Source: Parcubacteria group bacterium
GTDB lineage: Bacteria > Patescibacteriota > Minisyncoccia > Minisyncoccales > UBA10102
Assembly: GCA_016203945.1 (NCBI GenBank)
Contig: JACQLT010000002.1
Span: 181,336-245,335 of the forward strand
DNA: 64,000 bases
Direction: 5' to 3'
Part shown: positions 25,666 to 59,479 of the stretch, one piece after another
How positions within the stretch are numbered: the stretch's first letter is position 1
How the letters are laid out: every line of letters starts with the position of its first letter
Notes under the pieces: generated by a model
Database searches by the model: none
Told to the model about the DNA's origin: nothing
The model's input: the letters and a program-made list of their open reading frames with translations, nothing else
Translations under genes and position numbers: made by a program

Positions 25666-25674
25666 GTAAGCTAT

Positions 25675-25809: not shown

Positions 25810-25816
25810 CTCCCCC

Positions 25817-26882: not shown

Positions 26883-27346
26883 GCGCTGAACCAACAATTG
26901 AAATAGCAAAGCTGCTCGTCAAAGAGCTGTTCTCGCGCCTGGGGATCAAAGAAGCTCCGGCCGTGAGCATGCCAGACGGGCAGACCCTGCAGGTGACCCT
27001 GACAATAGAAGACCCCAAGACCCTTATTGGAGAACGCGGCCAGACGCTGTTTGAAATCCAGCATCTTCTGCGCGCTATGCTCAGAAAAAAACTTCAGCAA
27101 GACCCCCCCCGCGTATTCCTGGATATCAACGACTACCGCAAGAGCAAGGAAGAATATCTTCGGGACGCAGCCCGGCTGGCGGCCGACGAAGCGGTGCTGC
27201 TCAGTAAGCCCCGCGAGCTCGAGGCAATGTCGGCGGCTGACCGCAGGATCGTGCACATGGAATTAGCCCAGCGCTCAGACGTTGCCTCCGAGAGCATAGG
27301 AGAAGGAGAAGAGAGAAGGGTGGTGATAAAGCCGAGGGCATCCTAA
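26879..27346 (+). CDS. jag: RNA-binding protein Jag/KhpB (KH + R3H)
   Basis: KH-like TLIGERGQTLFEIQHLL and R3H RIVHMELAQRSDVASESIGEGEERRVVI; ATGA overlap with yidC. Confidence 0.7.
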   Translation: MSAEPTIEIAKLLVKELFSRLGIKEAPAVSMPDGQTLQVTLTIEDPKTLIGERGQTLFEIQHLLRAMLRKKLQQDPPRVFLDINDYRKSKEEYLRDAARLAADEAVLLSKPRELEAMSAADRRIVHMELAQRSDVASESIGEGEERRVVIKPRAS

Positions 27347-29136
27347 CCCCGGTCTTCTGCGGCGCGCTTCGCAGTTTCCCGCGCCAGGAGTTCTTTGGGA
27401 GACGTGGTGACAATCTCGTGTTCCGTTGGAGAGGCCACCACCTTAATGGCCACGTGTTTTTGTCCCGCAAAAAAGATTCCTTCCCCCAGCCCGGTCTCCA
27501 AGAGCAGCTGCTTTTCCGCTTCGGTAAGATTGAATGCTTTTTGTACAACATCAATGGTTGCAGGGCTTTGCTTGAGTAGAAGCTGCAAAGATGAGTTCGT
27601 GATAATCGGCCTGCCATAATCGGATCGCATAAAGTCACCAACATCTTGGGTGATGGTGGTCACGCCCAGGTAGTACTTCCTGGAGCGTTTCGCGATACCG
27701 TACAGAAAAGATGCTCCGTCTTCTGACTGCATAATCCACCAGGCCTCGTCCACCACGAGAATTCTTTTTTTAAGCACAGACCTCACTACGCTCCAGATGT
27801 AGCGCATGATGATGTACATTGCGAGGGGCCGCAAACCCTCTTCCATGTTGCGGATACCGAAAGAGACCAGGTTGGTGGTAAGAGAAATATTAGAATGCTG
27901 GTTGAAGAAGTTGGCGTAGGTTCCCTTGGTGAACTTTTGGAGTCTGCGCACCAGAGACTCCGCGCCCTCCATGGTAAGGAGCACTTCTTCTAAATCCTGC
28001 ATTAAGGGGATGTTCGCCTGCCAGTTCTTGGGGTCTGAAGTTACCGTAATGTCTTTTGCGGCATAGGTTTCCGTAACGGCTCTGTCCATAATAGAATCTT
28101 CTTCGGGAGTGAGCCCGCCCAGCATGAGGCGCATGAGGCCTACGAGGTTGATGACGTTGGATCGCAGGACGTCGTCTGGCCGCTCATCTTCTCTTGGGAG
28201 CGGCAAGTCAAAGGGATTGATGTGGTTTTCAGATCCCAGAGAAATATCAAAGAATGATCCTCCAGCGGCTTCGCAAAGCGGCTTGTATTCATTTTCAGGG
28301 TCTAACACGACGACGTCTACGCCCGTCATGAGCGACCTGAGAATCTCCAATTTTACTGCGTAGGATTTTCCAGAGCCCGACTTTGCGAATATGACCTCGT
28401 TGGCGTTTTCCAAAGAGAACCGGTCAAAAAGAATAAGAGAATTGTTGTGCCGGTTGATTCCATAGAGAATACCCTCGTTGGAGCTCAAGTCGAAAGACAG
28501 GAACGGAAAGAGCGAAGACAGGGGGCCGGTATTCATTGTGGTATGGGATTGGAGAAGGTCTTTCCCGTACGGGAGGCTGGAATTGAACCCCTCTTTCTGG
28601 CGATAGAGCGCCGGCTTCATATAGATGAGGCGCGACTCAAAAATGGAACGCAGTTCCGTCTTAATCCTCAACAACTCCTCTTGTGTTTCCCCGTATATGT
28701 TCAGGTATACGCCAACCTTGAACATCCTTTCCTGGGCCGTTTGCAGAGCATCCCGCAGGTTCTCAAGATCTGCGAATGCGGTTTCAAGAGAAGGATCTCG
28801 CACAAGGCCTCTTTCGGATTTCTCCATAAGCTCTGACTCAACCTCGGTAACTTTTCTGCGCAGCCGTTTGAGCACCAAGCCAGTGTCCACCGGATGGGCG
28901 AATAAGGCAACATCCATCGGAACCCCCATGTTAATGACCGGAGCTAACCAAGCTGAAGTGAGATACCGAGGGTAGGAGAAGATGAACATGGAAGTCGCCA
29001 GGCGTCCTGCCATGTCCAAATACTCGGAATCCACTTTCACCGTGGCCGGAGCTATGATATCTTTTGCGGTTAGGGTGTCCCTCTCAAAGAGCTTTTCGGA
29101 GACCGCCCCTGTTTTTTTTCCGAATAATGAAGCCAT
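27343..29136 (-). CDS. VirB4/TrbE/CagE-family T4SS ATPase, C-terminal NTPase portion (597 aa)
   Basis: Walker A FAKSGSGKSYAV, Walker B ILVVDEAWWIM, VirB4-like length/pattern; begins 5 nt after the stop of the VirB4 N-domain ORF. Confidence 0.6.
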   Translation of the reverse strand: MASLFGKKTGAVSEKLFERDTLTAKDIIAPATVKVDSEYLDMAGRLATSMFIFSYPRYLTSAWLAPVINMGVPMDVALFAHPVDTGLVLKRLRRKVTEVESELMEKSERGLVRDPSLETAFADLENLRDALQTAQERMFKVGVYLNIYGETQEELLRIKTELRSIFESRLIYMKPALYRQKEGFNSSLPYGKDLLQSHTTMNTGPLSSLFPFLSFDLSSNEGILYGINRHNNSLILFDRFSLENANEVIFAKSGSGKSYAVKLEILRSLMTGVDVVVLDPENEYKPLCEAAGGSFFDISLGSENHINPFDLPLPREDERPDDVLRSNVINLVGLMRLMLGGLTPEEDSIMDRAVTETYAAKDITVTSDPKNWQANIPLMQDLEEVLLTMEGAESLVRRLQKFTKGTYANFFNQHSNISLTTNLVSFGIRNMEEGLRPLAMYIIMRYIWSVVRSVLKKRILVVDEAWWIMQSEDGASFLYGIAKRSRKYYLGVTTITQDVGDFMRSDYGRPIITNSSLQLLLKQSPATIDVVQKAFNLTEAEKQLLLETGLGEGIFFAGQKHVAIKVVASPTEHEIVTTSPKELLARETAKRAAEDRG

Positions 29137-29141
29137 GTGCG

Positions 29142-29774
29142 TTACCGGATGATTTCCGGAGGAATCTCAGGATAGTAGCCGACTTCTGCTTCTTTTGGGT
29201 GATGCCACCCCCAAAACAATTCTATAAGTTCTTCTGAGTTCAAAGGAGCCACTTTTAGGCCCATGCGTCTCAATCCGAGCGCCACGAATTCCATGCGCTG
29301 CCAGAGCTGCGTCTTCATGCGCTGCAAGTCGTCATCGGAAAGCCCCCCCACAATCCTCGGCATGCGCTTCCGGTCGTCAAGCGGCAGGGTTTCTACGAGA
29401 GAAAACGGCACGACTACAAAGAAATTCTTGGTCATAATGGCAGACCCCGCAATGAGGCGCTCCACGAACGCATGGTAGTCCTTGGTGAGCCCCTTCAGCA
29501 GTTCATTCTTCTGATTTACCTCCAGCTCCTTGAGCTGGTCTAAGTAGCCGGTAAGGTTAAGCCTGCGGGATTGGACGACGATCTGCATCGAAAAATCCAG
29601 CGAGTTCAAGAGGGACTGGAACTGGGCAATAGTCGCATCCTGTTCTTCGCCCGACTTCAGGGCGAAATTCTGTGAAGAAACAAGCATGACGCCGCGCACG
29701 GTGCGGTCTTTGAGCACCGCCATTCCCTCTCGGATCTCGTCTAGCTCAAGGAATTCTTGTGTCGTGGCAGCCAT
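29142..29774 (-). CDS. VirB4 N-terminal domain protein (separate ORF, 210 aa)
   Basis: EIREGMAVLKDRTVRGVMLVSSQNFALKSGEEQDATIAQFQSLLNSLDFSMQIVVQSRR aligns in pattern with the VirB4/TrbE N-terminus (LLKDGS..a..G.aFEL.E.E.......N.LL..a.D.aSay.H.RH); combined with downstream ORF about 807 aa equals full VirB4 size. Confidence 0.55.
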   Translation of the reverse strand: MAATTQEFLELDEIREGMAVLKDRTVRGVMLVSSQNFALKSGEEQDATIAQFQSLLNSLDFSMQIVVQSRRLNLTGYLDQLKELEVNQKNELLKGLTKDYHAFVERLIAGSAIMTKNFFVVVPFSLVETLPLDDRKRMPRIVGGLSDDDLQRMKTQLWQRMEFVALGLRRMGLKVAPLNSEELIELFWGWHHPKEAEVGYYPEIPPEIIR

Positions 29775-29777
29775 TGT

Positions 29778-30179
29778 TTAAGATTCAATTTTTGTTGAGA
29801 GTTTGCTAATCTTACTTTCTTTAGAAAGCGTAATCTGGGTTGTGCGGGGTTCGGGCGCAGCTTCCGGGGCAGCAGCGCGAGCTGGCGCGCTGGCGAATAC
29901 GCGCTTCTTTTTCCAGTAGTAGATCTTGCCCCCCATCTGGAAACTCAAGAAATCTATGAATACAGCCGGAAGCGATTTCCCCCCAATCTGCACAAAGGCG
30001 GTGAGAAATCCAAATGCCGCAAGGCCGAGGCTTGCTACCGCAAAGACAAGCAGAGGCGCAAAGAAGTACAGAATAAAGGCGGCTCCGCCCGCGACCGCAA
30101 GAAAAGCGAATTGGCGGAAGGTGAGTGGCCCCACCACCAGCGCCTCTCGTTCAATAAATTGGGGAACTTGGAACTGCAT
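29778..30179 (-). CDS. VirB3/PrgI-like small membrane protein
   Basis: MQFQVPQFIEREALVVGPLTFRQFAFLAVAGGAAFILYFF: conserved G-L-(T/S)-x-RQF motif and 2 TM typical of PrgI/VirB3 family preceding VirB4; start trimmed to MQFQ. Confidence 0.5.
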   Translation of the reverse strand: MQFQVPQFIEREALVVGPLTFRQFAFLAVAGGAAFILYFFAPLLVFAVASLGLAAFGFLTAFVQIGGKSLPAVFIDFLSFQMGGKIYYWKKKRVFASAPARAAAPEAAPEPRTTQITLSKESKISKLSTKIES

Positions 30180-30192
30180 GATGTTTTTTACA

Positions 30193-30624
30193 TTATCTCG
30201 GAGCGCAGGGGATGCTGAAGATCCCGCCCCCAAGCCCGGTCCACTCCTGCACGCCAATGGCAACAAAGAACAGGTTAATGACGAGCCACGAGGCATAGAC
30301 AATGAGCAGCCCGAACATAACGCTTTTCAAAATGTCCCTGCCGCGCTGTATGTTTGCGGGACTTCCCTGCGAGAACAGAAAATACGCTCCCCCGACAACC
30401 ACCATGAGGACAGCCACGGCAGGCACGAAGGTGAATAAGATGAAGTCCAGAATGCGATCGACAAGGAGAAAGATGTGGCAAAATTGGCAGCCCTCTGTTT
30501 TTGCGTCGTATATGCCGTCTCCATCTATATCGTATCCGCAAGGCACCAGCCCCTGGGCAAGGGCAAAAGGAGCTGCGGAGAGCAGCAGGAGAAAGACGGC
30601 GACGAAAAGACATGCTCTTTTCAT
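30193..30624 (-). CDS. secreted two-helix hydrophobic protein, VirB2/TrbC-like pilin candidate (minimal paralog)
   Basis: Signal peptide MKRACLFVAVFLLLLSAAPFALAQG, then two hydrophobic helices separated by polar loop (VVGGAYFLFSQGSPANIQRGRDILKSVMFGLLIVYASWLVIN); shares GGxxY...G.P....R..I....GL....SWL...IN motif with ORFs 35916-37547 and 38895-40490. Confidence 0.45.
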   Translation of the reverse strand: MKRACLFVAVFLLLLSAAPFALAQGLVPCGYDIDGDGIYDAKTEGCQFCHIFLLVDRILDFILFTFVPAVAVLMVVVGGAYFLFSQGSPANIQRGRDILKSVMFGLLIVYASWLVINLFFVAIGVQEWTGLGGGIFSIPCAPR

Positions 30625-30627
30625 TTT

Positions 30628-31077
30628 TTATTCAAACGATTCCCGATACGTATCTTCTTTCTTTGGAGTGGCAGGAGATGGCGCTTCTTGCGCGAAAGCC
30701 GCAGCTGCGGGCGCCGCCTTCTTTACCTGGGGAGCAGCCGAGTTAGCTGCCTCTGTTATGTTATGAAGCTGGCGCAAGCTTTCTTTCACAGGAAAGAAGA
30801 CGAACCTGGTGATATCTCTTGCGATATTCGCAGCCGCGTCTTTTTTAAGCCCCACTTCTTTTTCCAGGGTTTTTTGGAAGTCCTCTGGAAGTAAAATGCC
30901 CATGAGCACTTGTCCCGTAAGCTCCGCAACCCTATTCCCCCGCTCGTCAGTCACGCCCTGCGACAGGCGTGCGTTATAAATCGCATCCGCGGTTTCCACG
31001 GAAAAGATCGCCTCTTGCAGCTCATCGGGAAGCTTTTCAAATATCTGATTAAACTGTTCTTGAGTATACTGTGGCAT
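30628..31077 (-). CDS. hypothetical soluble protein (149 aa, Ala/Pro-rich C-terminus)
   Basis: No TM; in T4SS-like operon between pilin candidate and VirB6-like gene. Confidence 0.3.
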   Translation of the reverse strand: MPQYTQEQFNQIFEKLPDELQEAIFSVETADAIYNARLSQGVTDERGNRVAELTGQVLMGILLPEDFQKTLEKEVGLKKDAAANIARDITRFVFFPVKESLRQLHNITEAANSAAPQVKKAAPAAAAFAQEAPSPATPKKEDTYRESFE

Positions 31078-31226
31078 AGATATAGTTTATCACCGCGAAA
31101 GAATACCACAAGCCTGCCTGCCGCAGGCAGGCGCCACTTGACACAGCCACTTTTTTGTTGTAGTATTGCTCCAGAAAAACTGAACCTTAAGAACAAAAAG
31201 AAAGCAGGCCAGAAAGGAGGTCGCGC

Positions 31227-31445
31227 ATGCCTAAGCTTTCAATGGAGCAGGTCGTTTGGATCGAGCTCATCGCAATCTGGGCCGTGATCGGCCTCCTGGT
31301 GGGCATCATGCTTTGGGAGCGGCTAAGGGAGTTTATTCGGAAGATGTTCCGCTCCCCAATATCTTCAGCAACGCTCCGGGGCAAGAGGAAAACGTTGCGG
31401 GGCCGCCCCGCATACGAAGGGAAATCGAAATCGGTACCCCAATAA
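31227..31445 (+). CDS. small single-TM membrane protein (72 aa)
   Basis: Strong SD aaaggaggt 6 nt upstream of ATG; TM WIELIAIWAVIGLLVGIMLW; precedes SPFH gene. Confidence 0.45.
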   Translation: MPKLSMEQVVWIELIAIWAVIGLLVGIMLWERLREFIRKMFRSPISSATLRGKRKTLRGRPAYEGKSKSVPQ

Positions 31446-31463
31446 AAGAAAGGAAGGTGTAGT

Positions 31464-32537
31464 ATGCAGTGGGCGGTGCTTGCAGGCGCTACGCCAGTTG
31501 TTCTGGGAATCGCATGTTTCCTGCTCGTGTGGTTCGTGCTCGCTCCCCGGAATCTGTTCTTCACGTTCGTTTCTGAGGGCACAGCAAAGATCGTCGTGAA
31601 GGCAGACCAATTTTCCAGGTGCCTCATCCAGTGGAAGGGGTATACCCTGGATGAAAACGGGAATGTGGTGTCGGGCAAAGACGGCTTCCACCCGTTTGGA
31701 GGCCTGCGGTTCGTAGGCATCTGGCCGATTTGGGACATCTTCGTTTACCTTCTGCGCTGGAATGACGTTCACAGGGCAGAAGAGCGAAACGGGAGGATAG
31801 AAGAAGTCAGGTTCCACGCCAAGTGGCTGGACTATATCCTTCTTCGCCCGGACGTCTACTGGACAAAGCTCACGGGAGCAGAGACCACACCAGGGACAGC
31901 GGAAACGCCAGAGGCCCAAGAGCGCATCCCACTGGACGTGGAGTTTAACATCACCATGCAGGTGATAAATCCGTACAAGGTAATGTTCGTAGCTCCCCCA
32001 AACTGGGTGGAAAATGTCCTCGTGCGGCTTGACGCGGTCCTTCGAGGATTTGTCGCCACCCACACCCTCGACGAGCTACTTGCTATGAGGGGAGGCGGCG
32101 GCGAACAAGCTGAAATAGTGACCTGGAACGAACTCGGTGCACATCCGTTCATCCAAGAAACCCTCGGGGAATGGGGCATTTCCATTCCTGAAAACGGGAT
32201 TCAGATGAAGAACATCGGGATCCCGGCCGACATCCAGCAGGCCGCTCAAGCAAGGCGCACGGAGCAGTTAAGGGCCGAAGGCGAGCGGCAGAGGGTGCAG
32301 ATCGGCGCCTCAGCAGAGGCGCAGAGAATCCACACGACCTATGGCGCCGTAGAACAACACGCCTCAGGCATGCTTATTCGGACTCTTGAGGCTGTCGAGA
32401 AGAGCCCATTGCCGGCAGCCTTGGCTGTCCAGGTCATCCCAGGTCTTTCAGATGTCCTTCGGGGCGTGCTCGAAAGGCCTGCAGCCGCAGTTGCTGCCGC
32501 TCCGGCAACAGATCAGGATCAGCCTGCTGCTCAGTAG
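31464..32537 (+). CDS. SPFH/band-7 (stomatin/HflKC-like) domain membrane protein
   Basis: N-terminal TM, SPFH-like core (DVEFNITMQVINPYKVMFVAPPNWVENVLVRLDAVLRGFVATHTLDELLAMRG) and coiled-coil AQARRTEQLRAEGERQRVQIGASAEAQRI; SD aaggaaggtg upstream. Confidence 0.55.
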   Translation: MQWAVLAGATPVVLGIACFLLVWFVLAPRNLFFTFVSEGTAKIVVKADQFSRCLIQWKGYTLDENGNVVSGKDGFHPFGGLRFVGIWPIWDIFVYLLRWNDVHRAEERNGRIEEVRFHAKWLDYILLRPDVYWTKLTGAETTPGTAETPEAQERIPLDVEFNITMQVINPYKVMFVAPPNWVENVLVRLDAVLRGFVATHTLDELLAMRGGGGEQAEIVTWNELGAHPFIQETLGEWGISIPENGIQMKNIGIPADIQQAAQARRTEQLRAEGERQRVQIGASAEAQRIHTTYGAVEQHASGMLIRTLEAVEKSPLPAALAVQVIPGLSDVLRGVLERPAAAVAAAPATDQDQPAAQ

Positions 32538-32586
32538 CAGCGGCAAAGCACAAAGGGGGTTTGCGAAAGCAGCCCCCTTTTTATTA

Positions 32587-34998
32587 TTACGCCAGAGAGC
32601 CAGGCCTTCCCCGAGGAAGTTTTTCTTGTCCGCCCTCTTTAGAAGATCCTGTTGCTCCTGGTCTTCCCCGAGGAGTCCGTTCCGGGCCGCCTTCTCCCGG
32701 AGGTGGCGGAGTTGTTGAAGGGGGCGTTGCAGAAGCTCCGCTGGCTCGGGAACGAGCGAGCTTCTCTTGCGTGCGCGTTTGGTCTTCTTCTAGTTCTCGA
32801 ATTTTTTGCAAGCTTTCCGGGGAAAGGTCTACGGCTCCTCCTGGCCGACGCCCCCTTTCTTGTACAAGTTCTTTTTGTATGTCGTCGAGACGGCGCTCTA
32901 ATCCCCGAATGTCTGCGGAACCAGGAACCCGATATCGTTCAATAATTTTTTCAGCGTCGTCTTGTGTGAGCCCTTTTCCTGTTTCAGGGTCTATATATGT
33001 AAAACCAAGATTGTGGGCGCCGGTACTCGAAACCCACTTCAACACATCTGGTGCGTTTTTCCCTAGCCAATCTTTATCAAGACTGCATATGTGATTAGTG
33101 ATTGCTGTTCGTTCTGCTTGTTCTCGCCTGCGAACCATTGGGCCGATAAATTCCGCTCCGCGCTCTATGAGCATCGAGTTAATAAATGCCGCGCCCGCTG
33201 GAGTGCTGGGATCATAGTTGCTCGGCGCATTCTCGTCGCCTTTTAAGTCTTCGGGCGTCATGCGGGCGGGAATCTTTGCTTTCATCCTCTCAAAATATTC
33301 TGCGTCAGAGCCCTTTCTTGAGAGAGCCCCCTCCGTGAACTTTACGCGCCCGGCATCGTCTTTTGCAAACTTGCCTTCAGCATCTCTTTCTAGGTCGTCG
33401 CTTCCGACATTGAAGCCCCATTTCGCTGGGTTAGTCATGATTTGTCCATAGAATGCCTTGAAAAGCGGACGCTCGCCATGGGGACCTATCCTGTCTCTCC
33501 CCAGTTTTATCAATTCTCCGATCTTTGCTTCTTTTCCTACCAACACCCCGTTTTTTTCAGGATCAAAAGCATCTTCAATATCATCTGCGTCTCCGCGGTT
33601 CCTTACTCCGGTCAGCAATCCCAAAATACGATTTTTATTTGGGACGGGCTTTAAGAGCTCGGCATTAACAGTAGCGAACACGTCTCGGGAGTCTCCCATC
33701 TTAGCGGTTTCTTTTACCGCCCTATCAAACGCAGCATAATCCCTAAAGTTAACCTGCTTGGAAAGTTCTCGCGCCCCGGCCTCTGTGACCCCCCAGCCTT
33801 TTCGCAAAGCCATTCCCGCAATAGTTGCCGGAATTCCGACTGCCCTGCCGGCCCCCCGTTTTTCAGCTCCCCATTGCTGCAATCCGCTTGCGAGCGATGT
33901 CATTTTTGTTGCAACTCCCGTAGCTTTGTTCCCGTACCTTCTCCAAAAAGCAGTACCCGCGGTTGCCCCGCCCCACTTGAGACCTTTCATGGCAAACGCC
34001 TTTGTGGCGGTGGCACCCATGGCGCCGCTTGTCTGCAAGGCGACAAAAAATCCCACCAAGAGCATGGCGAGCGCAATGCTGTAGGGTACGGTATCGTTGA
34101 GTATGCCGGCGACAAAGCCGTAAACCCCACCGCCCGAGGGCACTGACGCAGCAATCTCCCCCCGCGCCGCGAGGCTAATGATATGATCTCCCAGCCACAA
34201 GAAGAATGCGGCGAATATTCCAATGATAGACCATTGGAAGAATTGGTTCCACCACCAATTGAACAAGCCCCGCGTTCGCGGAAGGATAAAAGCAGCGAAC
34301 GCGATGGGGGAAAGAATAACCAAAATCCAAATAGCAATCCTCCTCACTATAAAGAGCGCGGCAAAAAGCATGAAAATAATGGCGGCGAAAACCTGAAAAG
34401 CCATGACGGCGAGCAATTGAAATATAAGAGAGATGTCGAAGATATTGCTATTGCCCGAAACAATATTGGTAAGATTTGTTAGAAGGTTCGTAACCAATCC
34501 GATGCCCGCCAATCCTTCCAGGAAAAAATTCATAAAGATGTTGGCGGTATCAACAATGAATCCGGTAATGACCGGGGTGAAGTTGATAAGAAGGGCTACT
34601 CCAATAAGCCGAGGCAGGGTTTTCTTTGCCTCGTATTGCCCAAGGCGCAGGGCGGTTGCCAGCCCAATAATGATTAAAAAGAACACGATAAGCATGTTCG
34701 CAAAATCGCGAACAACAGTCCACCCGGTCTCAACAATGGGACCCGTGGTATACGGAACCCGAATAAAAGAAGGATCAGTCGCAAGGCCAAGAATGATTCC
34801 TGCTATGGTGGCAGCGGCGGTTGTAAGGAAAAGCCCCGCAAGTAAAAATTGACCGATAACCAAAACCGCAATCGCATTTGCAATGCCGCCTAAAAATCCA
34901 CCAAATTGCGCCTGCGCAACGTTTGGAGAAAGGGCGATTCCCATCGAGGCAAAAAGAACAATCGCCAGCACTCCGCGTTTCCAGGCAAAAAATCTCAT
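32587..34998 (-). CDS. VirB6/TcpH-like polytopic membrane protein with ~400-aa C-terminal soluble extension
   Basis: About 10 predicted TM helices in N-terminal 400 aa (VirB6/TrbL-like), then hydrophilic domain ending in Pro-rich TPPSTTPPPPGEGG...PRGRPG; start placed at MRFFAWKRGVLAIV (signal-like). Confidence 0.5.
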   Translation of the reverse strand: MRFFAWKRGVLAIVLFASMGIALSPNVAQAQFGGFLGGIANAIAVLVIGQFLLAGLFLTTAAATIAGIILGLATDPSFIRVPYTTGPIVETGWTVVRDFANMLIVFFLIIIGLATALRLGQYEAKKTLPRLIGVALLINFTPVITGFIVDTANIFMNFFLEGLAGIGLVTNLLTNLTNIVSGNSNIFDISLIFQLLAVMAFQVFAAIIFMLFAALFIVRRIAIWILVILSPIAFAAFILPRTRGLFNWWWNQFFQWSIIGIFAAFFLWLGDHIISLAARGEIAASVPSGGGVYGFVAGILNDTVPYSIALAMLLVGFFVALQTSGAMGATATKAFAMKGLKWGGATAGTAFWRRYGNKATGVATKMTSLASGLQQWGAEKRGAGRAVGIPATIAGMALRKGWGVTEAGARELSKQVNFRDYAAFDRAVKETAKMGDSRDVFATVNAELLKPVPNKNRILGLLTGVRNRGDADDIEDAFDPEKNGVLVGKEAKIGELIKLGRDRIGPHGERPLFKAFYGQIMTNPAKWGFNVGSDDLERDAEGKFAKDDAGRVKFTEGALSRKGSDAEYFERMKAKIPARMTPEDLKGDENAPSNYDPSTPAGAAFINSMLIERGAEFIGPMVRRREQAERTAITNHICSLDKDWLGKNAPDVLKWVSSTGAHNLGFTYIDPETGKGLTQDDAEKIIERYRVPGSADIRGLERRLDDIQKELVQERGRRPGGAVDLSPESLQKIRELEEDQTRTQEKLARSRASGASATPPSTTPPPPGEGGPERTPRGRPGATGSSKEGGQEKLPRGRPGSLA

Positions 34999-35070
34999 TA
35001 CATTATTGTACCACCGCCAAAAGCCTGCGCAACAAGACGCCCCGCTCAATCAGGCGCAGAGGGGGTCGGG

Positions 35071-35099
35071 TTGACAAGTCCAGGGGAAAATTAGATACT
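35071..35099 (+). promoter_or_regulatory. putative promoter of DUF4352 gene
   Basis: TTGACA (35071-76), 17-nt spacer, GATACT; followed by SD AGAAGGAGGA (35155-64) 6 nt before ATG 35171. Confidence 0.4.
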
Positions 35100-35170
35100 A
35101 TATCCAGACATCCGCCACAGTGGTGGATTTGACATCTCAATAGCACACAAGTTCCAGAAGGAGGAACACG

Positions 35171-35848
35171 ATGGACAGAAGGCATACGGTGGGAAAGGGG
35201 GTCAGCCAACAGCCGACGCTGACCATCCCTACGCCATCCAAGAGATTGATCATCGGGATCGGGCTCGCAATCATCCTGATCGCGGCGATGGCGCTAATTG
35301 CGGTGACCATCGCGCTCACCACATCGTCGCCCGCAACCGACACAGCAGCCGTGGCCAACGTTCAGGAGCCGGCCGTTGCCAACACCGACCAGCAGGTCTC
35401 GCCAAATGGCGTTCAGGCACAGACGAGCGAGCCGACCGGCGACTTCACCCGTCCGGCAGACGCCGTCCGCATCGGCGAGTTCCTGATCACGGTGAACTCG
35501 GTGAGTACGCCGTCGGGCATCAACCCGCCGGAAGCCCACCTGAAGTACGTGGTCATCGAGCTCTCAGTGCAGAACGTCGGCACAAGCTCGAGTACGATTC
35601 GTGACATCGACGACTTCACGCTGTTTGATAGCGATGGGGTCAGGGCTAGCGCGCTGGTTGGAGGCGATGCGGAATCTGACGCCCTAGGAGAGCTTGGCAA
35701 GCGACTCCGTGGAGAATATCCGCGGGTTGAGCCTGGGCAGACCCTTGGCAGAGTCATGGTATTCAAGATCCTGAAGGATACCAAGCCCGCGCGTCTCGAG
35801 TTCTCGAGTCTCGACACCGGAGCCAGCGGCACTATTCCGCTCAAGTAG
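35171..35848 (+). CDS. DUF4352-like domain protein, membrane-anchored
   Basis: TM IIGIGLAIILIAAMALIAVTIAL, then RIGEFLITVNSVSTPSG...KYVVIELSVQNVGTSSSTI..DDFTLFDSDGVRAS matching DUF4352 beta-sandwich pattern; gene is about 60-63% GC versus ~50% surroundings. Confidence 0.5.
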   Translation: MDRRHTVGKGVSQQPTLTIPTPSKRLIIGIGLAIILIAAMALIAVTIALTTSSPATDTAAVANVQEPAVANTDQQVSPNGVQAQTSEPTGDFTRPADAVRIGEFLITVNSVSTPSGINPPEAHLKYVVIELSVQNVGTSSSTIRDIDDFTLFDSDGVRASALVGGDAESDALGELGKRLRGEYPRVEPGQTLGRVMVFKILKDTKPARLEFSSLDTGASGTIPLK

Positions 35849-35870
35849 TCTGCCCAGGGCGGATACATAA

Positions 35871-35905
35871 GGGCGTTCTCACATGAACGCCCTCCTTTTT
35901 ATTTC
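35871..35905 (+). terminator. rho-independent terminator after DUF4352 gene
   Basis: Perfect 8-bp inverted repeat GGGCGTTC-tcacat-GAACGCCC followed by TCCTTTTTATTT. Confidence 0.7.
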
Positions 35906-35915
35906 AGTTTTTTGG

Positions 35916-37547
35916 TTAGCGCGCTTTGATTGGAATTACCAAGAGGTATCTTGCCTCGTTGTCTCCGATATGATTATTTTTTAGGCGAATATCGTCCCCT
36001 TCAAACACCTCTGCTCTTCCGTCTTCCCTAAAGAGCACTGCGACATAGTCGCCATTAACCCTAATAGAAGAAGCGCGAGTCTTGCTTAGTACCCTATCGC
36101 AGCTCACCGTACTTTGATTGTCTCCGGATCCGATTGTTGTACCAAAATTTACGGAACCATTCACCCAGAGCGGTTTGCCCGATCTAAGAGCGCCAGTCGC
36201 GTCGGTCTGCGCGTTAATGGGGCCGCAGTGTTTTTGATCAGCCTCATTTCTGTCGCTCTTTGGCTGTTCGTTGAAGTCATAGTTTCCAAAGAGGGTGACG
36301 CCGTCTCCTGAAGGAGAATTGACAGGTATCGTATTGGTTATCGTTTGGTTAGAAACGATTTCATATGGCAAGTATTGATTAAATACCTTTACGGAAGATA
36401 CTTCGTTTGCCACAAATCCTTGGCAGTAGGGCTCTTGCGTCTGACTGCAGGACTCGGCGATTGGGATGCATTCGGCGCGTTGAGCAGGAATTTGGTTGAG
36501 ATCTTTCCCGCCCAAGAACACAGCGCCGTCTCCTTCAAACCTCTCTTTTTCAAACAGTACCACCCCCACCTTGTTTGTTATGGCGCTTATGAATTTGTCT
36601 GACTCGGGAGTGCCTTCTGGAAAGGGGCCAAAAAGAGGCAATCTGGTAATTGAAGGAATGATCTTGAGTGATTTTGCTCGGTTGTCAAAATCTCCGAGAG
36701 TCGCCGTGTTTCCCACATATGCCTGCACCTCGTCACCTGAACATTCTGCCCCGGCAAAAAGGTATACTCCGGGAGTTTTCCAGGTAAGCTGAACAGAGCC
36801 AATCTTTTGTTCCCCGCCAAGCGAAACACATGCGGCTCCGGCATTGTCAGTTTCTAAAGAAGCGGGGATCTCACCGCCCTGCTGCCGGACGCGGTCTGCA
36901 GAGCTGAATACTTTAATTCCCCGGCGATCCTTTTCTTTGTAAATAACAATGTCGAGTTCCGTGCTTGAGTTAAGAAACCTAATTGATCCAGCTTTGGGAA
37001 AATTTATGCTCACGCCAGGAATTTCGTTGGTGAGATCAGAGAGAGTGTTTTTTACCCGCAGAAAATCCACTCCTTCTCGCAGTCCTTTTGTGCTTCCGCA
37101 ATTGTCTCCCGCAAACAAGATAACTCCCTGTTTTGAAAAATTAGCATCTTTATCTATCTTAAGAATAACAAGCTGTGGGTTAATGGTAGTAAGCAAAAGC
37201 CATGAGCCAAGAAGTAGTACCAGCCCAAGAAGAGAGGCTTTGATCTGCTCCCTTGCGTCTGAAAGCGCCCCCGGATTTCCGGCAGAAGAGACATATCTGA
37301 ATCCTCCATAGACAAAAGAAACAAACGCGGCGAGTCCGGCAACCGCAATGCCAAGGTTGAACATGTACTTGATAAAGTTGGGAAGACTTCGCACCTCGTT
37401 GGGGGGCTGGGCTCCTCCCGGCACCTGCGGGTATTCGAGTTCCAGCTGCTGGGCAAACGCGACAGGCAAAACCAAAGAGAACACAAACGCAATCAACACG
37501 GCTGCTACGAGAATGGTAAATACAAGGCGTACTCGTTTTTGCTTCAT
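35916..37547 (-). CDS. pilin-like (VirB2-type N-terminal module) protein fused to large extracellular repeat domain (543 aa)
   Basis: Signal peptide, then LELEYPQVPG...FIKYMF...VYGGFRYVSSAGNPGALSDAREQIKASLLGLVLLLGSWLLLTTINPQL (paralogous to 30193-30624 and 38895-40490); C-terminal 400 aa with 5 internal G(V/I)xLF...G repeats. Confidence 0.45.
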   Translation of the reverse strand: MKQKRVRLVFTILVAAVLIAFVFSLVLPVAFAQQLELEYPQVPGGAQPPNEVRSLPNFIKYMFNLGIAVAGLAAFVSFVYGGFRYVSSAGNPGALSDAREQIKASLLGLVLLLGSWLLLTTINPQLVILKIDKDANFSKQGVILFAGDNCGSTKGLREGVDFLRVKNTLSDLTNEIPGVSINFPKAGSIRFLNSSTELDIVIYKEKDRRGIKVFSSADRVRQQGGEIPASLETDNAGAACVSLGGEQKIGSVQLTWKTPGVYLFAGAECSGDEVQAYVGNTATLGDFDNRAKSLKIIPSITRLPLFGPFPEGTPESDKFISAITNKVGVVLFEKERFEGDGAVFLGGKDLNQIPAQRAECIPIAESCSQTQEPYCQGFVANEVSSVKVFNQYLPYEIVSNQTITNTIPVNSPSGDGVTLFGNYDFNEQPKSDRNEADQKHCGPINAQTDATGALRSGKPLWVNGSVNFGTTIGSGDNQSTVSCDRVLSKTRASSIRVNGDYVAVLFREDGRAEVFEGDDIRLKNNHIGDNEARYLLVIPIKAR

Positions 37548-37557
37548 GATGATGCGA

Positions 37558-38388
37558 TTACCTTATAGTACAGCAGAAGAAGTTATTGTTAAAGCACTGC
37601 TCCTGTTTCTCGGACAAAACCTTCTCGAACCGTGCTTCCTGGCAGGAAATGAGAATATCCACGTCTTGTTCGGATTCTCCTGTGTCGTAGAAGTTTGCCG
37701 GAGTCACGCAGGCCTCTAGGCCCTGCCTTGCCTCTTTGAGGTTGAGAAGAATGTGTTCCCGCCAGGGTTGTTTCTGGCATTTTTGTTGGCAGCCAAAGGG
37801 GCCGTAATCTACAGCACATTGCTGGCTGCCGCAGTACTCTGCCGTCACAAAAGGAGAGGGTATTTTTTCTCCAAAAGGCGCTGCAATCATTCCGTTTGCT
37901 TGCACGGTGCTCTCGTGCGCAGCTATAATCTTTGCAACCTGGTCTTGAATTTCGGATGTTGGGCAGGGGCTTCCTGCGCACGCTGACGCTCGGCATGCGT
38001 ATATGGGAGTCGACGTGCCCTGACACTTCCCCTTCTCATCAGTCTTCCCGTCGCACTTACTCCCGACAACTTCAGGAGTACAAGAAGAGCGACACGCGTT
38101 TACATTGCATCTGTCTGGAAGCTCAAGAAGCTTGTCTACGGCGGTTTTCTGTCGAAGATAGTTAGTTCTCATAGAATGAAGCGCATTTCCAACCTGTCGC
38201 ACAAGATCTCCTGATTGCACCACGACTTCCCCAACGGGGATCTCTTTTTCTTGGCAGACGAGTTCATCCGAGAATTCTTGCGCAAGCGCTTCAGCAAGAG
38301 GCGAGGCCCGGAAAACGCCGTTGCCAAACAGAAAATATGCAAGTATTGCAAAGGAGATAGCGAAGAAAATAAGAAAAGATTGTTTCAT
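37558..38388 (-). CDS. secreted cysteine-rich protein (276 aa, about 25 Cys)
   Basis: N-terminal signal/TM MKQSFLIFFAISFAILAYFLF; numerous Cys in CxxxC/CxC patterns; ends FFCCTIR. Confidence 0.4.
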   Translation of the reverse strand: MKQSFLIFFAISFAILAYFLFGNGVFRASPLAEALAQEFSDELVCQEKEIPVGEVVVQSGDLVRQVGNALHSMRTNYLRQKTAVDKLLELPDRCNVNACRSSCTPEVVGSKCDGKTDEKGKCQGTSTPIYACRASACAGSPCPTSEIQDQVAKIIAAHESTVQANGMIAAPFGEKIPSPFVTAEYCGSQQCAVDYGPFGCQQKCQKQPWREHILLNLKEARQGLEACVTPANFYDTGESEQDVDILISCQEARFEKVLSEKQEQCFNNNFFCCTIR

Positions 38389-38400
38389 TGCGTTTTTATT

Positions 38401-38892
38401 TTATTGTATCACGCAGCCGGGCGGAAGCGGATCAAACTCTCCGCCAACCTGTTTGAAATAATTGAAGGCTTCGCCGCCTACGTAAAATACAACAGGCAGA
38501 CCACATATATCTTTAGAAGAAAACCCTTGCTCTTGAAACCACTGCATGACTTCTTGTTTTATCTGTTCTGTTTCTATGCCCCGAATTTCCACATAAAAAA
38601 TATCAGGACTTGGCAGATAAGAGATTCTGTAAGAAGTTGTTTCGTAAAGAGTCGCCGGCTCCCCGCGTATTGTTTGGAGCATGGCAGACCGCAGCGACCT
38701 TCCTTCGTTGCTTAGTTTTCCTCGTAGTTCTGCAATACGCTCTACGGTTCTGGGTGTGTTCCTGAAGACGGGGCGAACAACAGGGCTTTGTTTTGAGTAT
38801 ATTGAGTAAAAAAAGATCAAAAGGAACAATAGCCCGAGCGCCAAAGCGGTTTTCAAAAGAAGAATTTTTCTGAAACCTGAAAAATTAAACAT
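38401..38892 (-). CDS. N-terminally membrane-anchored hypothetical protein (163 aa)
   Basis: TM ILLLKTALALGLLFLLIFFYSIY then small soluble domain; 2-nt gap to next ORF. Confidence 0.35.
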   Translation of the reverse strand: MFNFSGFRKILLLKTALALGLLFLLIFFYSIYSKQSPVVRPVFRNTPRTVERIAELRGKLSNEGRSLRSAMLQTIRGEPATLYETTSYRISYLPSPDIFYVEIRGIETEQIKQEVMQWFQEQGFSSKDICGLPVVFYVGGEAFNYFKQVGGEFDPLPPGCVIQ

Positions 38893-38894
38893 AG

Positions 38895-40490
38895 TTATTC
38901 AATCCATCCCGCGCAAACCGGAACATGTTCCGTCTGTCCCCCCCCGAGCTCACAGGGATTACACGTCCAACGATTCCCGTATTGAGGATCAAGCACTTGC
39001 CAGTATTCCCATCCAGAGCAGACGTTTCCGTGGAGATCTTGTAGTCCTCTCACTCCTTTGAATTGCAATACCGGGTTTAATGTTTGTTCTGACCAAAGGG
39101 GTTCTGCTACCTGGTATCCATTTGGGTAACTGCCGGGCGGCGTATCTGGATCAGCGTCCACTCCTCCGCCAAGATCGAACTGATAAAATCCCGTTGCTGG
39201 CGGATGGGGAGAGCAGAAGTTTTGAGCTCCGGGGTTCCAGCCGCTTTCTGGCCCTATGACGTCGAGAAAAAAGATATTTGCCTCTTCTTCTGACAAACGG
39301 CTGCGTAGCTGTCCGTGGACCTCATCTTGAATTGTTTCCAAGGGAGCCCCTTCGGGATTAAACGAAGTGCCGCTTGCATAGTTTGGGGGAATAACGCTGC
39401 AAATACCATCTCCTCCTCCGCCGAACCCTTCTCCGGGAGGCCCAATAATGCGCCGATACGCGTCTTCTATAATGGTTTTATTCTGCTCTTCATCCACGTA
39501 AAACGTAAAAGGATCATTCCCCCGCGCCTCGACTGTTTTCCCAACAGCGATAAAGGGATTTATTTGGACGTTTTTGTACCCAGAATTTAACAATACCTGC
39601 TTGATTTCAAGAAAATTGTCATAGTTGACAGGGTCTGGAATTTCTTGGAGAAATTCGTTCGCGTAGAGAAGCCGCGAGCCGTCCCGGATAAATTCGGTAA
39701 ACGAACGATCTGGTTTTGACATAAAATCCGAAAACTCTTCCATTGCGTCGGCAAGTTCCAGCTTCTTCTTCTCGATTGTCCCCTGATCACATATCTGTCC
39801 TGTGCACTGAGTTGCCGGGGAACAAGATTGAGAACCGGAACATCCTCCACTGGGTTGCGCGCGAGAACAACTGCATTTTTTGGTTTCTTCTTGCAGGGCA
39901 AGCGCCGCATCCCGCACCTTCTTTGAAAGTTGCACAGTTTTATTCCCTTTTTCTTGTAAGGCATTGATGCGGCGCGGTTCAAGAGCGTCTTCAAGCAAGG
40001 TCCCCAAAGGCACTTCAAGCGCCGAAGCAGTCAGCCCTTCTTTTTCACACTGTTCCTTGCATTGATCCGTGACGGGGTTAAAGCAGTCGCACGTGTCTCT
40101 GGTTGGGATTTGAGCTATGGGTTTGTCAATCCTGAAAACAGCAAGCTGAGGGTTAATGGTGGCGAGAAGAATATAGGCTCCTAACAGAATAAGAGATCCC
40201 AGCACTCCTTCAGTAATCTGGGCCCGGGCTTCACTTCTTGCGCCAGGACTTCCTCCGGAGGCCATGTACTTGAATCCTCCGTATACGGCAGACCCCACGG
40301 CAAGAAATCCCGCGGAAATCACAGAAAAAATATATATATATCTGACAAATTCCGGCAGAGCCGGCTTTGTAGAAAGCTGGGATCCGGGAAGGGCAGGATA
40401 GTTCAGTTCAAGCCCTTGCGCAAACACTGCGGCTCCGCTAACGGTTGCTACTGCAAGCAGAAGGGTGATAAAAATAAGAAAAGTGCGCAT
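38895..40490 (-). CDS. pilin-like (VirB2-type N-terminal module) protein fused to large Cys-rich extracellular domain (531 aa)
   Basis: Start at MRTFLIFITLLLAVATVSGAAVFAQG (TAATG overlap with upstream ORF stop); GLELNYPALPG...FVRYIYIF...VYGGFKYMASGGSPGARSEARAQITEGVLGSLILLGAYILLATINPQL; downstream CDCFNPVTDQCKEQCEKEG and KKCSCSRAQPSGGCSGSQSCSPATQCTGQICDQG clusters. Confidence 0.45.
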   Translation of the reverse strand: MRTFLIFITLLLAVATVSGAAVFAQGLELNYPALPGSQLSTKPALPEFVRYIYIFSVISAGFLAVGSAVYGGFKYMASGGSPGARSEARAQITEGVLGSLILLGAYILLATINPQLAVFRIDKPIAQIPTRDTCDCFNPVTDQCKEQCEKEGLTASALEVPLGTLLEDALEPRRINALQEKGNKTVQLSKKVRDAALALQEETKKCSCSRAQPSGGCSGSQSCSPATQCTGQICDQGTIEKKKLELADAMEEFSDFMSKPDRSFTEFIRDGSRLLYANEFLQEIPDPVNYDNFLEIKQVLLNSGYKNVQINPFIAVGKTVEARGNDPFTFYVDEEQNKTIIEDAYRRIIGPPGEGFGGGGDGICSVIPPNYASGTSFNPEGAPLETIQDEVHGQLRSRLSEEEANIFFLDVIGPESGWNPGAQNFCSPHPPATGFYQFDLGGGVDADPDTPPGSYPNGYQVAEPLWSEQTLNPVLQFKGVRGLQDLHGNVCSGWEYWQVLDPQYGNRWTCNPCELGGGQTEHVPVCAGWIE

Positions 40491-40921
40491 TATGTTTGAA
40501 GCTCGGAGTATACCATAAAGGTCCAGAGGGGGAGCGCTCCTACGTAGGGGATGACTTCTCCAATAAAGGCAACAGGTCGAAGCCACTTGGACCGGCCTGC
40601 CATTTTTGCGGTTCTTGCCTCTGCTTGCGCGCCTCTCGTCTCCATTTGGGGACGACTTCCCCTGAACAGCATCCAAAGCCCTATGGTGCAGTAGGCTATA
40701 AAATCGGTAATGAAAAAATCGTCTAGCCCAAAAAGAACCAAGCCAATCCCAATGATGTCTATTATTCCTGCAATGGACATCATTATAAACCCCTCGGGAC
40801 TCAAGAGAGAGGCGCCCCCGCCTTCATCTGCCGTTTGCTCTTGGCTGCCAGTTTGGTCTTGGGGAGCTTCTTCTGTCTGCGCAGGCGCTCCTTCTTGCTC
40901 CTGTACTTCTTCGTCTGCCAT
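40490..40921 (-). CDS. small membrane protein with acidic N-terminus (143 aa)
   Basis: MADEEVQEQEGAPAQTEEAPQDQTGSQEQTADEGG then 3-4 TM; translationally coupled (TAATG) to pilin-fusion gene; first gene of minus-strand cluster. Confidence 0.4.
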   Translation of the reverse strand: MADEEVQEQEGAPAQTEEAPQDQTGSQEQTADEGGGASLLSPEGFIMMSIAGIIDIIGIGLVLFGLDDFFITDFIAYCTIGLWMLFRGSRPQMETRGAQAEARTAKMAGRSKWLRPVAFIGEVIPYVGALPLWTFMVYSELQT

Positions 40922-40940: not shown

Positions 40941-40990
40941 TCCTTAACTAAGTTAAGGATACATCACTCTATCCTTAGCTAAGCTAAGGA
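40941..40990. promoter_or_regulatory. pair of 19-bp palindromes (TCCTTAACTAAGTTAAGGA ... TCCTTAGCTAAGCTAAGGA) between ksgA 3' end and pilin-cluster start
   Basis: Perfect inverted repeats at 40941-40959 and 40972-40990; first followed by ATACAT as at 52933-52954; candidate operator and/or ksgA terminator. Confidence 0.4.
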
Positions 40991-59477: not shown

Positions 59478-59479
59478 TT

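What the first reader, a model, noticed from the sequence alone, without database searches (positions are those of the whole stretch)
27343..40921. Compact T4SS-like locus (VirB4, VirB3/PrgI-like, VirB6/TcpH-like) without coupling protein or relaxase
A 13.6-kb, mostly minus-strand cluster encodes a VirB4-family ATPase (split in two ORFs), a PrgI/VirB3-like small membrane protein, an 800-aa VirB6/TcpH-like polytopic protein, and three proteins carrying a VirB2-like two-helix pilin module. It also carries several secreted or anchored hypotheticals. No VirD4/TraG, relaxase, VirB11 or VirB9/10 is present in the window. This inventory resembles monoderm (Gram-positive/CPR-type) minimal T4SS used for host-cell contact rather than classical conjugation. 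The combination with pilin-fusion proteins is unusual.
Basis: partly seen in the sequence, partly recalled or inferred. Interest (0 to 1): 0.85.

Follow-up and report, generated by a model that had tools for sequence, protein, structure and literature searches.

The report
Patescibacteria-type chromosomal type IV secretion locus

Summary
Window 27343-40921 encodes:
- a VirB4 ATPase body (NCBIfam CD1110 model, 369 bits against a cutoff of 325);
- a separate TrsD-like VirB4 N-domain protein;
- a PrgI/VirB3-like protein;
- three proteins that share one VirB2-like pilin module.

No VirD4, relaxase, VirB11 or VirB9/10 was found anywhere in the 64-kb window.

The VirB4 "split" is not damage. In 78 of 78 related loci the N-part ends in its own stop codon, and the relative reading frames vary.

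The gene order ksgA – pilin fusions – VirB6 – p149 – pilin – PrgI – TrsD – VirB4 – jag – yidC – dnaA is conserved across 80 Paceibacteria-type genomes. VirB4 is better conserved there than DnaA.

This system is already published: gene content, missing relaxase and dnaA/ksgA proximity in PMC12102498, and essentiality in a Saccharibacterium in PMC10633639.

What I did not find described in the papers I read is how common pilin fusions are. In the related loci, 101 of 121 pilin-module ORFs carry large C-terminal domains. In this window one is a tandem beta-gamma-crystallin and one a Cys-rich module; relatives carry Ig-like, lamin-tail, M23 and lysozyme-like domains.

The most likely function is a host-contact pilus or conduit, not conjugation. 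Interest is low to moderate.

The parts
27343..29136 (-). VirB4 ATPase body (597 aa), lacking the usual N-terminal domain
   Evidence: NCBIfam CD1110 VirB4-like model, 369.3 bits against cutoff 325; Pfam P-loop_TraG 1.2e-23. hhalign 99.8% to pSK41 TrsE and to pCF10 PrgJ residues 220-776. 65-93% identical in 80 Patescibacteria loci.
29142..29774 (-). TrsD-like protein, the stand-alone VirB4 N-terminal domain (210 aa)
   Evidence: Matches N-terminal positions of VirB4 profiles (E 2.6e-7); weak TrsD/TraD hit (E 0.043). It is a separate ORF with its own stop in 78/78 relatives, and the relative frames vary. The family has 1584 cluster representatives; the 150 listed are mostly ~200-250 aa stand-alone proteins. 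A rare fused 898-aa form, P0264, exists.
29778..30179 (-). PrgI/VirB3-like small membrane protein (133 aa)
   Evidence: Pfam PF12666, 29.9 bits against cutoff 27. Present in 74/80 loci directly upstream of the TrsD-like gene. Translation checked.
30193..30624 (-). VirB2-like T4SS pilin (143 aa): signal peptide plus two-helix hairpin
   Evidence: Pfam PF18895, 26.8 bits against 26.6; TrbC/VirB2 E 0.02. Module aligned with the two fusion proteins.
30628..31077 (-). Conserved soluble 149-aa protein of unknown role (p149)
   Evidence: No Pfam or NCBIfam family. Present next to PrgI in 55/80 loci by tblastn and as 61 ORFs by jackhmmer. No match to pSK41 or pCF10 components.
31464..32537 (+). SPFH/Band-7 membrane protein embedded in the cluster on the opposite strand
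   Evidence: Pfam Band_7 5.7e-7. Found at the same position in 15-19 related loci.
32587..34998 (-). Extended VirB6 (803 aa): polytopic N-terminal half plus a helical C-terminal domain of about 340 aa
35171..35848 (+). DUF4352 membrane-anchored protein on the opposite strand; probably an insertion and not a system part
   Evidence: Pfam DUF4352 1.3e-12. 0/80 related loci carry it.
35916..37547 (-). Pilin fusion (543 aa): signal peptide, VirB2-like hairpin, tandem beta-gamma-crystallin domains
   Evidence: PF18895 24.3 bits; Mbov_0395 pilin-like E 2.8e-4. Full-length homologues carry PF18895, and one carries PF00030. AlphaFold model pLDDT 76. Foldseek hits to gamma-crystallins, E 1.4e-4, probability 1.0.
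37558..38388 (-). Cys-rich protein (276 aa) with a hydrophobic N-terminus, so likely secreted or anchored
   Evidence: No family. Weakly conserved, 3/80 loci. N-terminus read from the translation.
38401..38892 (-). Small membrane-anchored ORF (163 aa, or 93 aa as called elsewhere); uncertain gene
   Evidence: No family; 0/80 loci. Called as 93 aa on the Logan contig.
38895..40490 (-). Pilin fusion (531 aa): VirB2-like hairpin, a Cys-rich helical module, and a unique C-terminal region of about 170 aa
   Evidence: PF18895 16.5 bits; jackhmmer convergence. Identical to P0121. The Cys-rich module recurs 1-3 times in other pilin fusions.
40490..40921 (-). Conserved 143-aa membrane protein with predicted hydrophobic helices (p143); its stop codon overlaps the start of the next gene by 1 nt
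   Evidence: No family. 28/80 loci by tblastn and 53 ORFs by jackhmmer, often directly after virB4.
41839..42876 (+). LysM-M23 peptidoglycan peptidase beside the cluster; candidate cell-wall opener standing in for VirB1.
   Evidence: Pfam Peptidase_M23 3.8e-21 and LysM 3.1e-18. Syntenic next to ksgA in 25/80 loci. PMC12102498 reports M23/LysM domains on VirB1 homologues and notes that VirB1 homologues are associated with virB4 in Paceibacteria.

Best explanation
This is the chromosomal, origin-proximal type IV secretion system characteristic of Patescibacteria (CPR), here in a Parcubacteria/Paceibacteria genome.

Shown: the cluster encodes a VirB4 ATPase whose N-terminal domain is a separate TrsD-like protein, a PrgI/VirB3-like membrane protein, an extended VirB6, one short VirB2-like pilin, and two proteins in which the same pilin hairpin carries large C-terminal domains. 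There is no relaxase, coupling protein or VirB11 in the window.

Inferred mechanism: VirB4 together with TrsD docks on VirB3 and VirB6 in the single membrane. It uses ATP to pull pilin hairpins out of the membrane and stack them into a short pilus or tube. Pilin termini face outward, so the fusion proteins would put crystallin-like, Cys-rich and (in relatives) Ig-like or cell-wall-cleaving domains on the tube or around its base. There they would bind or open the host envelope. The tube serves host contact and exchange of macromolecules (uptake of host material or export of proteins), not plasmid conjugation.
For: - Component identities.
- The two-gene VirB4 is conserved in 78/78 relatives with varying relative frames, and a rare fused homologue exists.
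- The synteny ksgA...VirB6-p149-PrgI-TrsD-VirB4-jag-yidC-dnaA holds across 80 Patescibacteria genomes, including the enrichment-derived MAG of Ca. Microsyncoccus archaeolyticus.
- VirB4 is more conserved than DnaA in 62/62 genomes. This argues for a core cellular role rather than a mobile element.
- No VirD4 or relaxase was found in the window or within +/-10 kb in the 80 relatives.
- Literature: the same gene set, the missing relaxase and the dnaA/ksgA proximity are described in PMC12102498. The T4SS and its pilins are essential in Southlakia epibionticum, while comEC is dispensable for viability (PMC10633639; PMC12857230).
- T4SS-pilin-domain proteins are among the most highly expressed genes of unknown function in Paceibacterales parasites (PMC10936435).
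- Tubular structures suggested to be T4SS pili were seen at the parasite-host interface by cryo-EM (preprint 10.64898/2026.06.21.733656).
Against: - No experiment exists for this organism or for any Paceibacteria T4SS. The transported substrate and its direction are unknown.
- Only 64 kb of a contig of about 249 kb was seen, so a VirD4 homologue may lie elsewhere. PMC12102498 reports many VirD4 homologues located far from virB4.
- The window's own VirB6 has no significant direct HMM hit, and the Foldseek E-value is only 0.024.
- Incorporation of 500-aa fusion proteins into a pilus is untested and sterically questionable.
- No VirB8-like component was identified.
Confidence: 0.85

Rival explanations
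1. It is a conjugative or mobilising T4SS (an ICE or an ICE remnant) whose relaxase and coupling protein lie elsewhere in the genome.
For: VirB4 belongs to the CD1110/MPF_FATA-like conjugation ATPase family. The order pilin-VirB3-TrsD-VirB4 mirrors trsB-trsC-trsD-trsE of the conjugative plasmid pSK41. VirD4 homologues are reported far from virB4 in many Patescibacteria (PMC12102498).
Against: The locus is fixed between ksgA and jag-yidC-dnaA in 80 genomes, and VirB4 is more conserved than DnaA. No integrase, relaxase or T4CP lies beside the locus in the window or in the 80 relatives; the only integrase-family gene is XerC/D-like and sits 20 kb away. GC content is close to that of the flanks. 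Relaxases were found in only 103 Patescibacteria genomes.
Confidence: 0.05
2. It is a DNA-uptake (competence) machine comparable to the Helicobacter ComB T4SS, importing environmental or host DNA as a source of nucleotides.
For: It needs neither a relaxase nor a T4CP, which fits their absence. These organisms generally lack nucleotide synthesis (PMC12102498; preprint). In the ABY1 class the T4SS genes sit beside comF, recG and radA.
Against: In S. epibionticum, competence depends on comEC and type IV pili. Deleting comEC leaves viability intact while the T4SS remains essential. No competence genes sit in this locus.
Confidence: 0.08
3. It is a decaying, non-functional cluster, with a frameshifted VirB4 and a scatter of hypothetical genes.
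For: VirB4 is in two ORFs in different frames, 5 nt apart. Several neighbouring ORFs have no family assignment.
Against: The two-ORF form occurs in 78/78 relatives with all relative frames. Both parts are highly conserved, with median identity 69% and 59%. The stand-alone N-domain family has 1584 cluster representatives.
Confidence: 0.01

Closest known systems
Patescibacteria-clade T4SS (Quinonero-Coronel et al. 2025, PMC12102498; Southlakia epibionticum SEML1_0006-0019, Wang et al. 2023, PMC10633639)
   Same: The gene set is the same: VirB4, TrsD, PrgI/VirB3, VirB6 and PF18895 VirB2-like pilins. So are the missing relaxase and T4CP nearby, the chromosomal position near dnaA and ksgA (reported for Paceibacteria), and the monoderm architecture without VirB7/9/10.
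   Different: The Saccharibacterial locus has an array of six short pilins. This locus has one short pilin plus two long pilin fusions. It also includes a conserved 149-aa soluble protein, a 143-aa membrane protein and an SPFH protein, none of which I saw mentioned in the parts of the papers I read.
pGO1/pSK41 subclass of Gram-positive conjugative T4SS (MPF_FATA): trsB-trsC-trsD-trsE ... trsK, trsL
   Same: VirB4 is split into TrsD and a shortened TrsE-like body (hhalign 99.8% between the window's VirB4 body and TrsE). The local order is the same: small CagC/VirB2-like protein, VirB3-like, TrsD, VirB4. There is a TrbL/VirB6-family protein (weak hhalign p 3.3e-4 to TrsL).
   Different: pSK41 has a relaxase, the VirD4 homologue TrsK, a CHAP hydrolase, a topoisomerase and an SSB, and it is a plasmid. 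None of these is present here. Direct similarity of the small proteins was not detectable (TrsD p 0.0035; TrsB and TrsC none).
R388/Agrobacterium VirB-type (MPF_T) T4SS
   Different: No VirB5, VirB7, VirB8, VirB9, VirB10, VirB11 or VirD4. The cell has a single membrane, and VirB6 is extended by a C-terminal domain of about 400 aa.

Membership tests
Patescibacteria-clade T4SS (PMC12102498) | VirB4 signature ATPase related to MPF_FATA | tested here: met
   NCBIfam CD1110 VirB4-like model, 369.3 bits against cutoff 325. hhalign 99.8% to TrsE and to PrgJ.
Patescibacteria-clade T4SS (PMC12102498) | VirB4 falls inside the monophyletic Patescibacteria clade | tested here: inconclusive
   No tree was built. 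The 80 best of 511 relatives are all Patescibacteria MAGs at 65-93% identity, which makes membership very likely.
Patescibacteria-clade T4SS (PMC12102498) | TrsD-like protein encoded next to virB4 | tested here: met
   The 210-aa ORF lies directly upstream and is homologous to the VirB4 N-domain (E 2.6e-7). It is conserved as a separate gene in 78/78 relatives. The direct hit to the NCBIfam TrsD/TraD model is only E 0.043.
Patescibacteria-clade T4SS (PMC12102498) | PrgI/VirB3 homologue near virB4 | tested here: met
   PF12666, 29.9 bits against 27.
Patescibacteria-clade T4SS (PMC12102498) | VirB6 homologue near virB4 | tested here: met
Patescibacteria-clade T4SS (PMC12102498) | VirB2-like pilin(s), PF18895 | tested here: met
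   The 143-aa pilin passes the gathering score. The two fusions are below the cutoff but belong to the same module family by reciprocal jackhmmer. 65/90 long relatives hit PF18895.
Patescibacteria-clade T4SS (PMC12102498) | No relaxase or T4CP beside virB4; chromosomal position near dnaA and ksgA | tested here: met
   Window scans; searches of the relatives' loci; synteny.
Conjugative MPF_FATA T4SS (pSK41/pCF10 type) | Relaxase and VirD4/TcpA coupling protein associated with the system | tested here: not met
   None found in the 64-kb window or within +/-10 kb in 80 relatives. The rest of the genome was not seen.
Conjugative MPF_FATA T4SS (pSK41/pCF10 type) | Location on a plasmid or ICE | tested here: not met
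   The chromosomal context beside dnaA is fixed in 65-73 of 80 genomes.
Diderm VirB/D4 (MPF_T) T4SS | Outer-membrane core VirB7/9/10 and the VirB11 ATPase | tested here: not met
   No Pfam or NCBIfam hits in the locus. The only T2SSE-family ATPase in the window is GspE/PilB-type.

The most novel reading that the evidence does not exclude
In Paceibacteria the VirB2-like hairpin acts as a portable pilus-incorporation or anchoring module. Long pilin fusions are loaded by the VirB4/VirB6 machine into or onto the T4SS tube. There they would replace the missing VirB5 tip adhesin, the PrgB-type adhesins and VirB1. The fused domains seen here are beta-gamma-crystallin and Cys-rich repeats; relatives carry Ig-like, lamin-tail, M23 and lysozyme-like domains. 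Their rapid C-terminal turnover would set host range. This modular fusion architecture is the majority form in the related loci (101 of 121 pilin-module ORFs), and I did not find it discussed in the papers I read.
Probability: 0.3. Interest if true: 0.6.

Novelty: already known. Interest (0 to 1): 0.3.

Why it matters
The Patescibacteria T4SS is one of the few candidate machines for how a very large group of ultra-small bacteria attach to and feed on host cells. It is essential in the one genetically tractable species. This window adds no new kind of system. It does give a clean, well-conserved Paceibacteria example. It shows that the two-gene VirB4 is genuine, that VirB4 is under tighter constraint than DnaA, and that most pilin-module genes here are long fusions with variable surface domains. 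Those fusions are concrete targets for host-specificity studies in the few cultured Paceibacteria.

Tried and rejected
- Exact-sequence look-up of the 597-aa VirB4 found nothing. The 803-aa VirB6 look-up did identify the source as a Parcubacteria MAG with HY458 locus tags.
- A homologue search with the 531-aa fusion gave only 2 hits, so its C-terminal region is nearly unique.
- From an 'ESGWNPGA...GFYQF' motif I suspected that the last ~170 aa of the 531-aa fusion are lytic-transglycosylase-like. Pfam at E<=10 found nothing, and jackhmmer over the proteins and ORFs held locally found only its own sequence for that stretch, so I do not claim it.
- A sequence profile of the VirB6 family against PDB sequences gave only chance-level hits. 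Only the fold comparison worked.
- hhalign of the small-protein families (PrgI, pilin, p149, p143, TrsD-like) against single pSK41 and pCF10 proteins gave no usable matches. Single-sequence templates are insensitive, so this is not evidence of absence.
- The promoter and terminator consensus scan was no better than shuffled sequence.
- The frameshift/pseudogene reading of VirB4 was rejected.
- VirB11 candidacy of the ATPase at 16200-17513 was rejected.
Full report
**1. What is there**

The region 27343-40921 is a mostly minus-strand block of genes. On one side lie jag/KhpB, yidC and dnaA (24068-27346). On the other lie ksgA (40953-41831), a LysM-M23 peptidase, a DksA/TraR zinc-finger protein and PNPase. 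Base composition is close to that of the flanks, with GC 0.475-0.54 in the locus and 0.50-0.55 beside it.

**2. Component identities**

- The 597-aa protein is a VirB4. It scores 369.3 bits on the NCBIfam CD1110 VirB4-like model (cutoff 325) over profile positions 175-734 of 752, and Pfam P-loop_TraG gives 1.2e-23.
- The 210-aa protein upstream matches the N-terminal part of VirB4 models: NF045975 E 2.6e-7 at positions 121-232, and CD1110 at positions 12-114. It hits the TrsD/TraD model only weakly, E 0.043.
- PrgI/VirB3: PF12666, 29.9 bits against 27. The likely start gives 133 aa.
- The 143-aa protein passes the PF18895 T4SS_pilin cutoff, 26.8 against 26.6 bits.
- The polytopic protein is identical to the 803-aa NCBI protein HY458_01870 from a Parcubacteria MAG, which has a weak TrbL_3 hit on record.
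  - It has no significant Pfam hit itself, but 9 of 31 homologues hit TrbL/VirB6 PF04610, best E 9.3e-7.
  - Its AlphaFold model has pLDDT 75, with confident membrane and C-terminal domains.
  - The best Foldseek matches are the R388 TrwI/VirB6 chains, E 0.024 and probability 1.0.
  - It is therefore an "extended VirB6" in the sense used by the review PMC12857230.

**3. The split VirB4 is real**

- The two ORFs are 5 nt apart and in different frames.
- In all 78 related loci that carry both parts, the N-part ends in its own stop codon before the C-part begins. All three relative frames occur. A sequencing error or a recent frameshift cannot explain this.
- The N-part family has 1584 cluster representatives, and the 150 listed are mostly stand-alone proteins of 200-250 aa.
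- One 898-aa representative, P0264, is a genuine fusion of both parts. Residues 13-213 match the N-part and residues 322-890 are 50% identical to the C-part. The two genes together therefore equal one VirB4.
- This corresponds to the TrsD + TrsE arrangement of the pGO1/pSK41 subclass. hhalign gives 99.8% between the C-part and TrsE, and between the C-part and PrgJ residues 220-776.
- PMC12102498 reports TrsD as the most abundant T4SS component in Patescibacteria.

**4. Conservation**

- A genome-collection scan found 511 relatives. The 80 kept are all Patescibacteria MAGs (Wildermuthbacteria, Nealsonbacteria, Paceibacterota and others, including Ca. Microsyncoccus archaeolyticus) at 65-93% identity.
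- Counts of window genes found in those 80 loci by tblastn:

| Gene | Loci (of 80) |
|---|---|
| dnaA | 65 |
| yidC | 71 |
| jag | 73 |
| VirB4 body | 80 |
| TrsD-like | 78 |
| PrgI | 74 |
| p149 | 55 |
| VirB6 | 57 |
| pilin-module hits | 64-65 |
| ksgA | 35 |

- The order is fixed: ksgA – pilin fusions – VirB6 – (SPFH) – p149 – (pilin) – PrgI – TrsD – VirB4 – (p143, further fusions) – jag – yidC – dnaA.
- Median identity is 69% for VirB4 and 58% for DnaA, and VirB4 is the higher of the two in 62 of 62 genomes. One caveat applies: the loci were ranked by VirB4 similarity.

**5. Pilin fusions**

- jackhmmer searches started from each of the three window modules converge on the same 120-121 ORFs. 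The three modules align with a shared GG-x-x-[YF]-x-x-S-x-G-x-P...R loop motif.
- 101 of the 121 ORFs are longer than 200 aa, and in 97 of 121 the module ends by residue 220.
- The 543-aa protein has about 25 full-length homologues. Its model (pLDDT 76) shows a signal helix, a two-helix hairpin and beta-rich domains that match gamma- and microbial beta-gamma-crystallins (Foldseek E 1.4e-4, probability 1.0).
- The 531-aa protein has a Cys-rich module that recurs 1-3 times in other fusions, followed by a unique tail.
- Among 90 long relatives, 65 hit PF18895. Their C-terminal hits are Ig_Rha78A_N (10), lamin tail domain (5), Peptidase_M23 (2), crystallin (2), He_PIG (1) and SLT_3 lysozyme-like (1).

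**6. Absences**

- Pfam/NCBIfam scans of the remaining window ORFs show ordinary housekeeping genes: polA, uvrB, ruvAB, dnaN, murein ligase, a PBP, NusA, RNase Y, ClpP and others. There is no VirD4, relaxase, VirB8/9/10 or VirB11.
- The ATPase at 16200-17513 is GspE/PilB-type, 443 bits against 56 bits for VirB11.
- Searches with pSK41 and pCF10 VirD4 and relaxase proteins found nothing in the window or in the 80 loci. These searches have limited sensitivity.

**7. Known status**

- PMC12102498 (2025) describes this system: a Patescibacteria VirB4 clade related to MPF_FATA, with TrsD, PrgI/VirB3, VirB6 and PF18895 pilins, a relaxase lacking in most genomes, and dnaA/ksgA/rnpA proximity in Paceibacteria.
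- PMC10633639 shows the T4SS and its pilins to be essential in Southlakia epibionticum.
- PMC12857230 reviews it as a Gram-positive-type T4SS that may build a pilus.
- PMC10936435 finds T4SS-pilin-domain proteins among the most highly expressed genes of unknown function in Paceibacterales parasites of methanogens.
- A 2026 preprint (10.64898/2026.06.21.733656) reports tubular structures that may be T4SS pili at a parasite-host interface, together with host RNA uptake.

**8. Mechanism**

The parts list and its conservation are shown. The following is inferred from general T4SS knowledge and from the papers above. VirB4/TrsD, anchored by VirB3 on a VirB6 platform, extracts pilin hairpins from the membrane to build a tube across the single envelope. 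The fusion proteins display binding or wall-cleaving domains on it. The neighbouring LysM-M23 peptidase may open peptidoglycan. The tube mediates host contact and macromolecule exchange rather than conjugation.

The rivals are weaker:
- A conjugative element is contradicted by the fixed chromosomal context and the missing relaxase.
- A ComB-like DNA uptake machine is contradicted by the comEC results in Southlakia.
- A decayed locus is refuted.

**9. Verdict**

However, the system is already described, so the finding is an ordinary member of a known and interesting kind. The residual points I did not find in the literature I read are the prevalence and domain diversity of pilin fusions, the conserved p149 and p143 proteins, and the very tight constraint on VirB4.

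Noticed in passing
window 43644-45755 (PNPase), with the DksA/TraR zinc-finger protein at 42866-43231: PNPase lies about 3 kb from the T4SS block and recurs within 10 kb of virB4 in 9 of 80 related loci. A 2026 preprint links Patescibacteria T4SS-like tubes, host RNA uptake and PNPase. The proximity may be only origin-region housekeeping synteny.
   Followed up: partly
window 16200-17513 (+): A GspE/PilB-type type IV pilus assembly ATPase (443 bits to GspE) stands alone between tsaE and ruvB. No pilC, pilM or pilin genes were recognised among the neighbouring genes I scanned.
   Followed up: partly
L083 (pSK41) 25115-28602 compared with window 27343-30624: NCBI names pSK41 TrsB a 'CagC family type IV secretion system protein', that is, VirB2-like. 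The order trsB-trsC-trsD-trsE equals pilin-PrgI-TrsD-VirB4 here. This hints that the Patescibacteria pilin could be ancestral to this subclass rather than co-opted from diderm systems, which PMC12102498 leaves open. My hhalign test of pilin against TrsB was negative.
   Followed up: partly
window 30628-31077 and 40490-40921: Two proteins with no family assignment are conserved within the T4SS synteny: a soluble 149-aa protein (61 ORFs) and a 143-aa membrane protein (53 ORFs). They are candidates for lineage-specific T4SS parts.
   Followed up: partly
window 35870-35893: A strong hairpin (9-bp stem with 6 GC pairs, followed by a T-run) sits between the convergent DUF4352 gene (+) and the pilin-crystallin fusion gene (-). 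It is a likely terminator, possibly acting in both directions.
   Followed up: no
window 58001-64000: GC content drops to 0.42-0.45 from about 0.50-0.54 in the rest of the window. The segment carries thioredoxin-like/AhpC, DUF3179 and an Mqo/FAD oxidoreductase, so it may be an acquired segment.
   Followed up: no
window 52006-52854 (+): A protein combines an ATP-cone domain with an Mrr-type restriction endonuclease domain and an AF1548-like C-terminus. This is an unusual domain pairing.
   Followed up: no
L001-L080 record titles: Many of the closest relatives are labelled 'uncultured Candidatus Saccharibacteria bacterium' in TPA assemblies. Their loci nevertheless match Wildermuth-, Nealson- and Paceibacteria-type synteny. 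The labels are probably generic mis-assignments.
   Followed up: no
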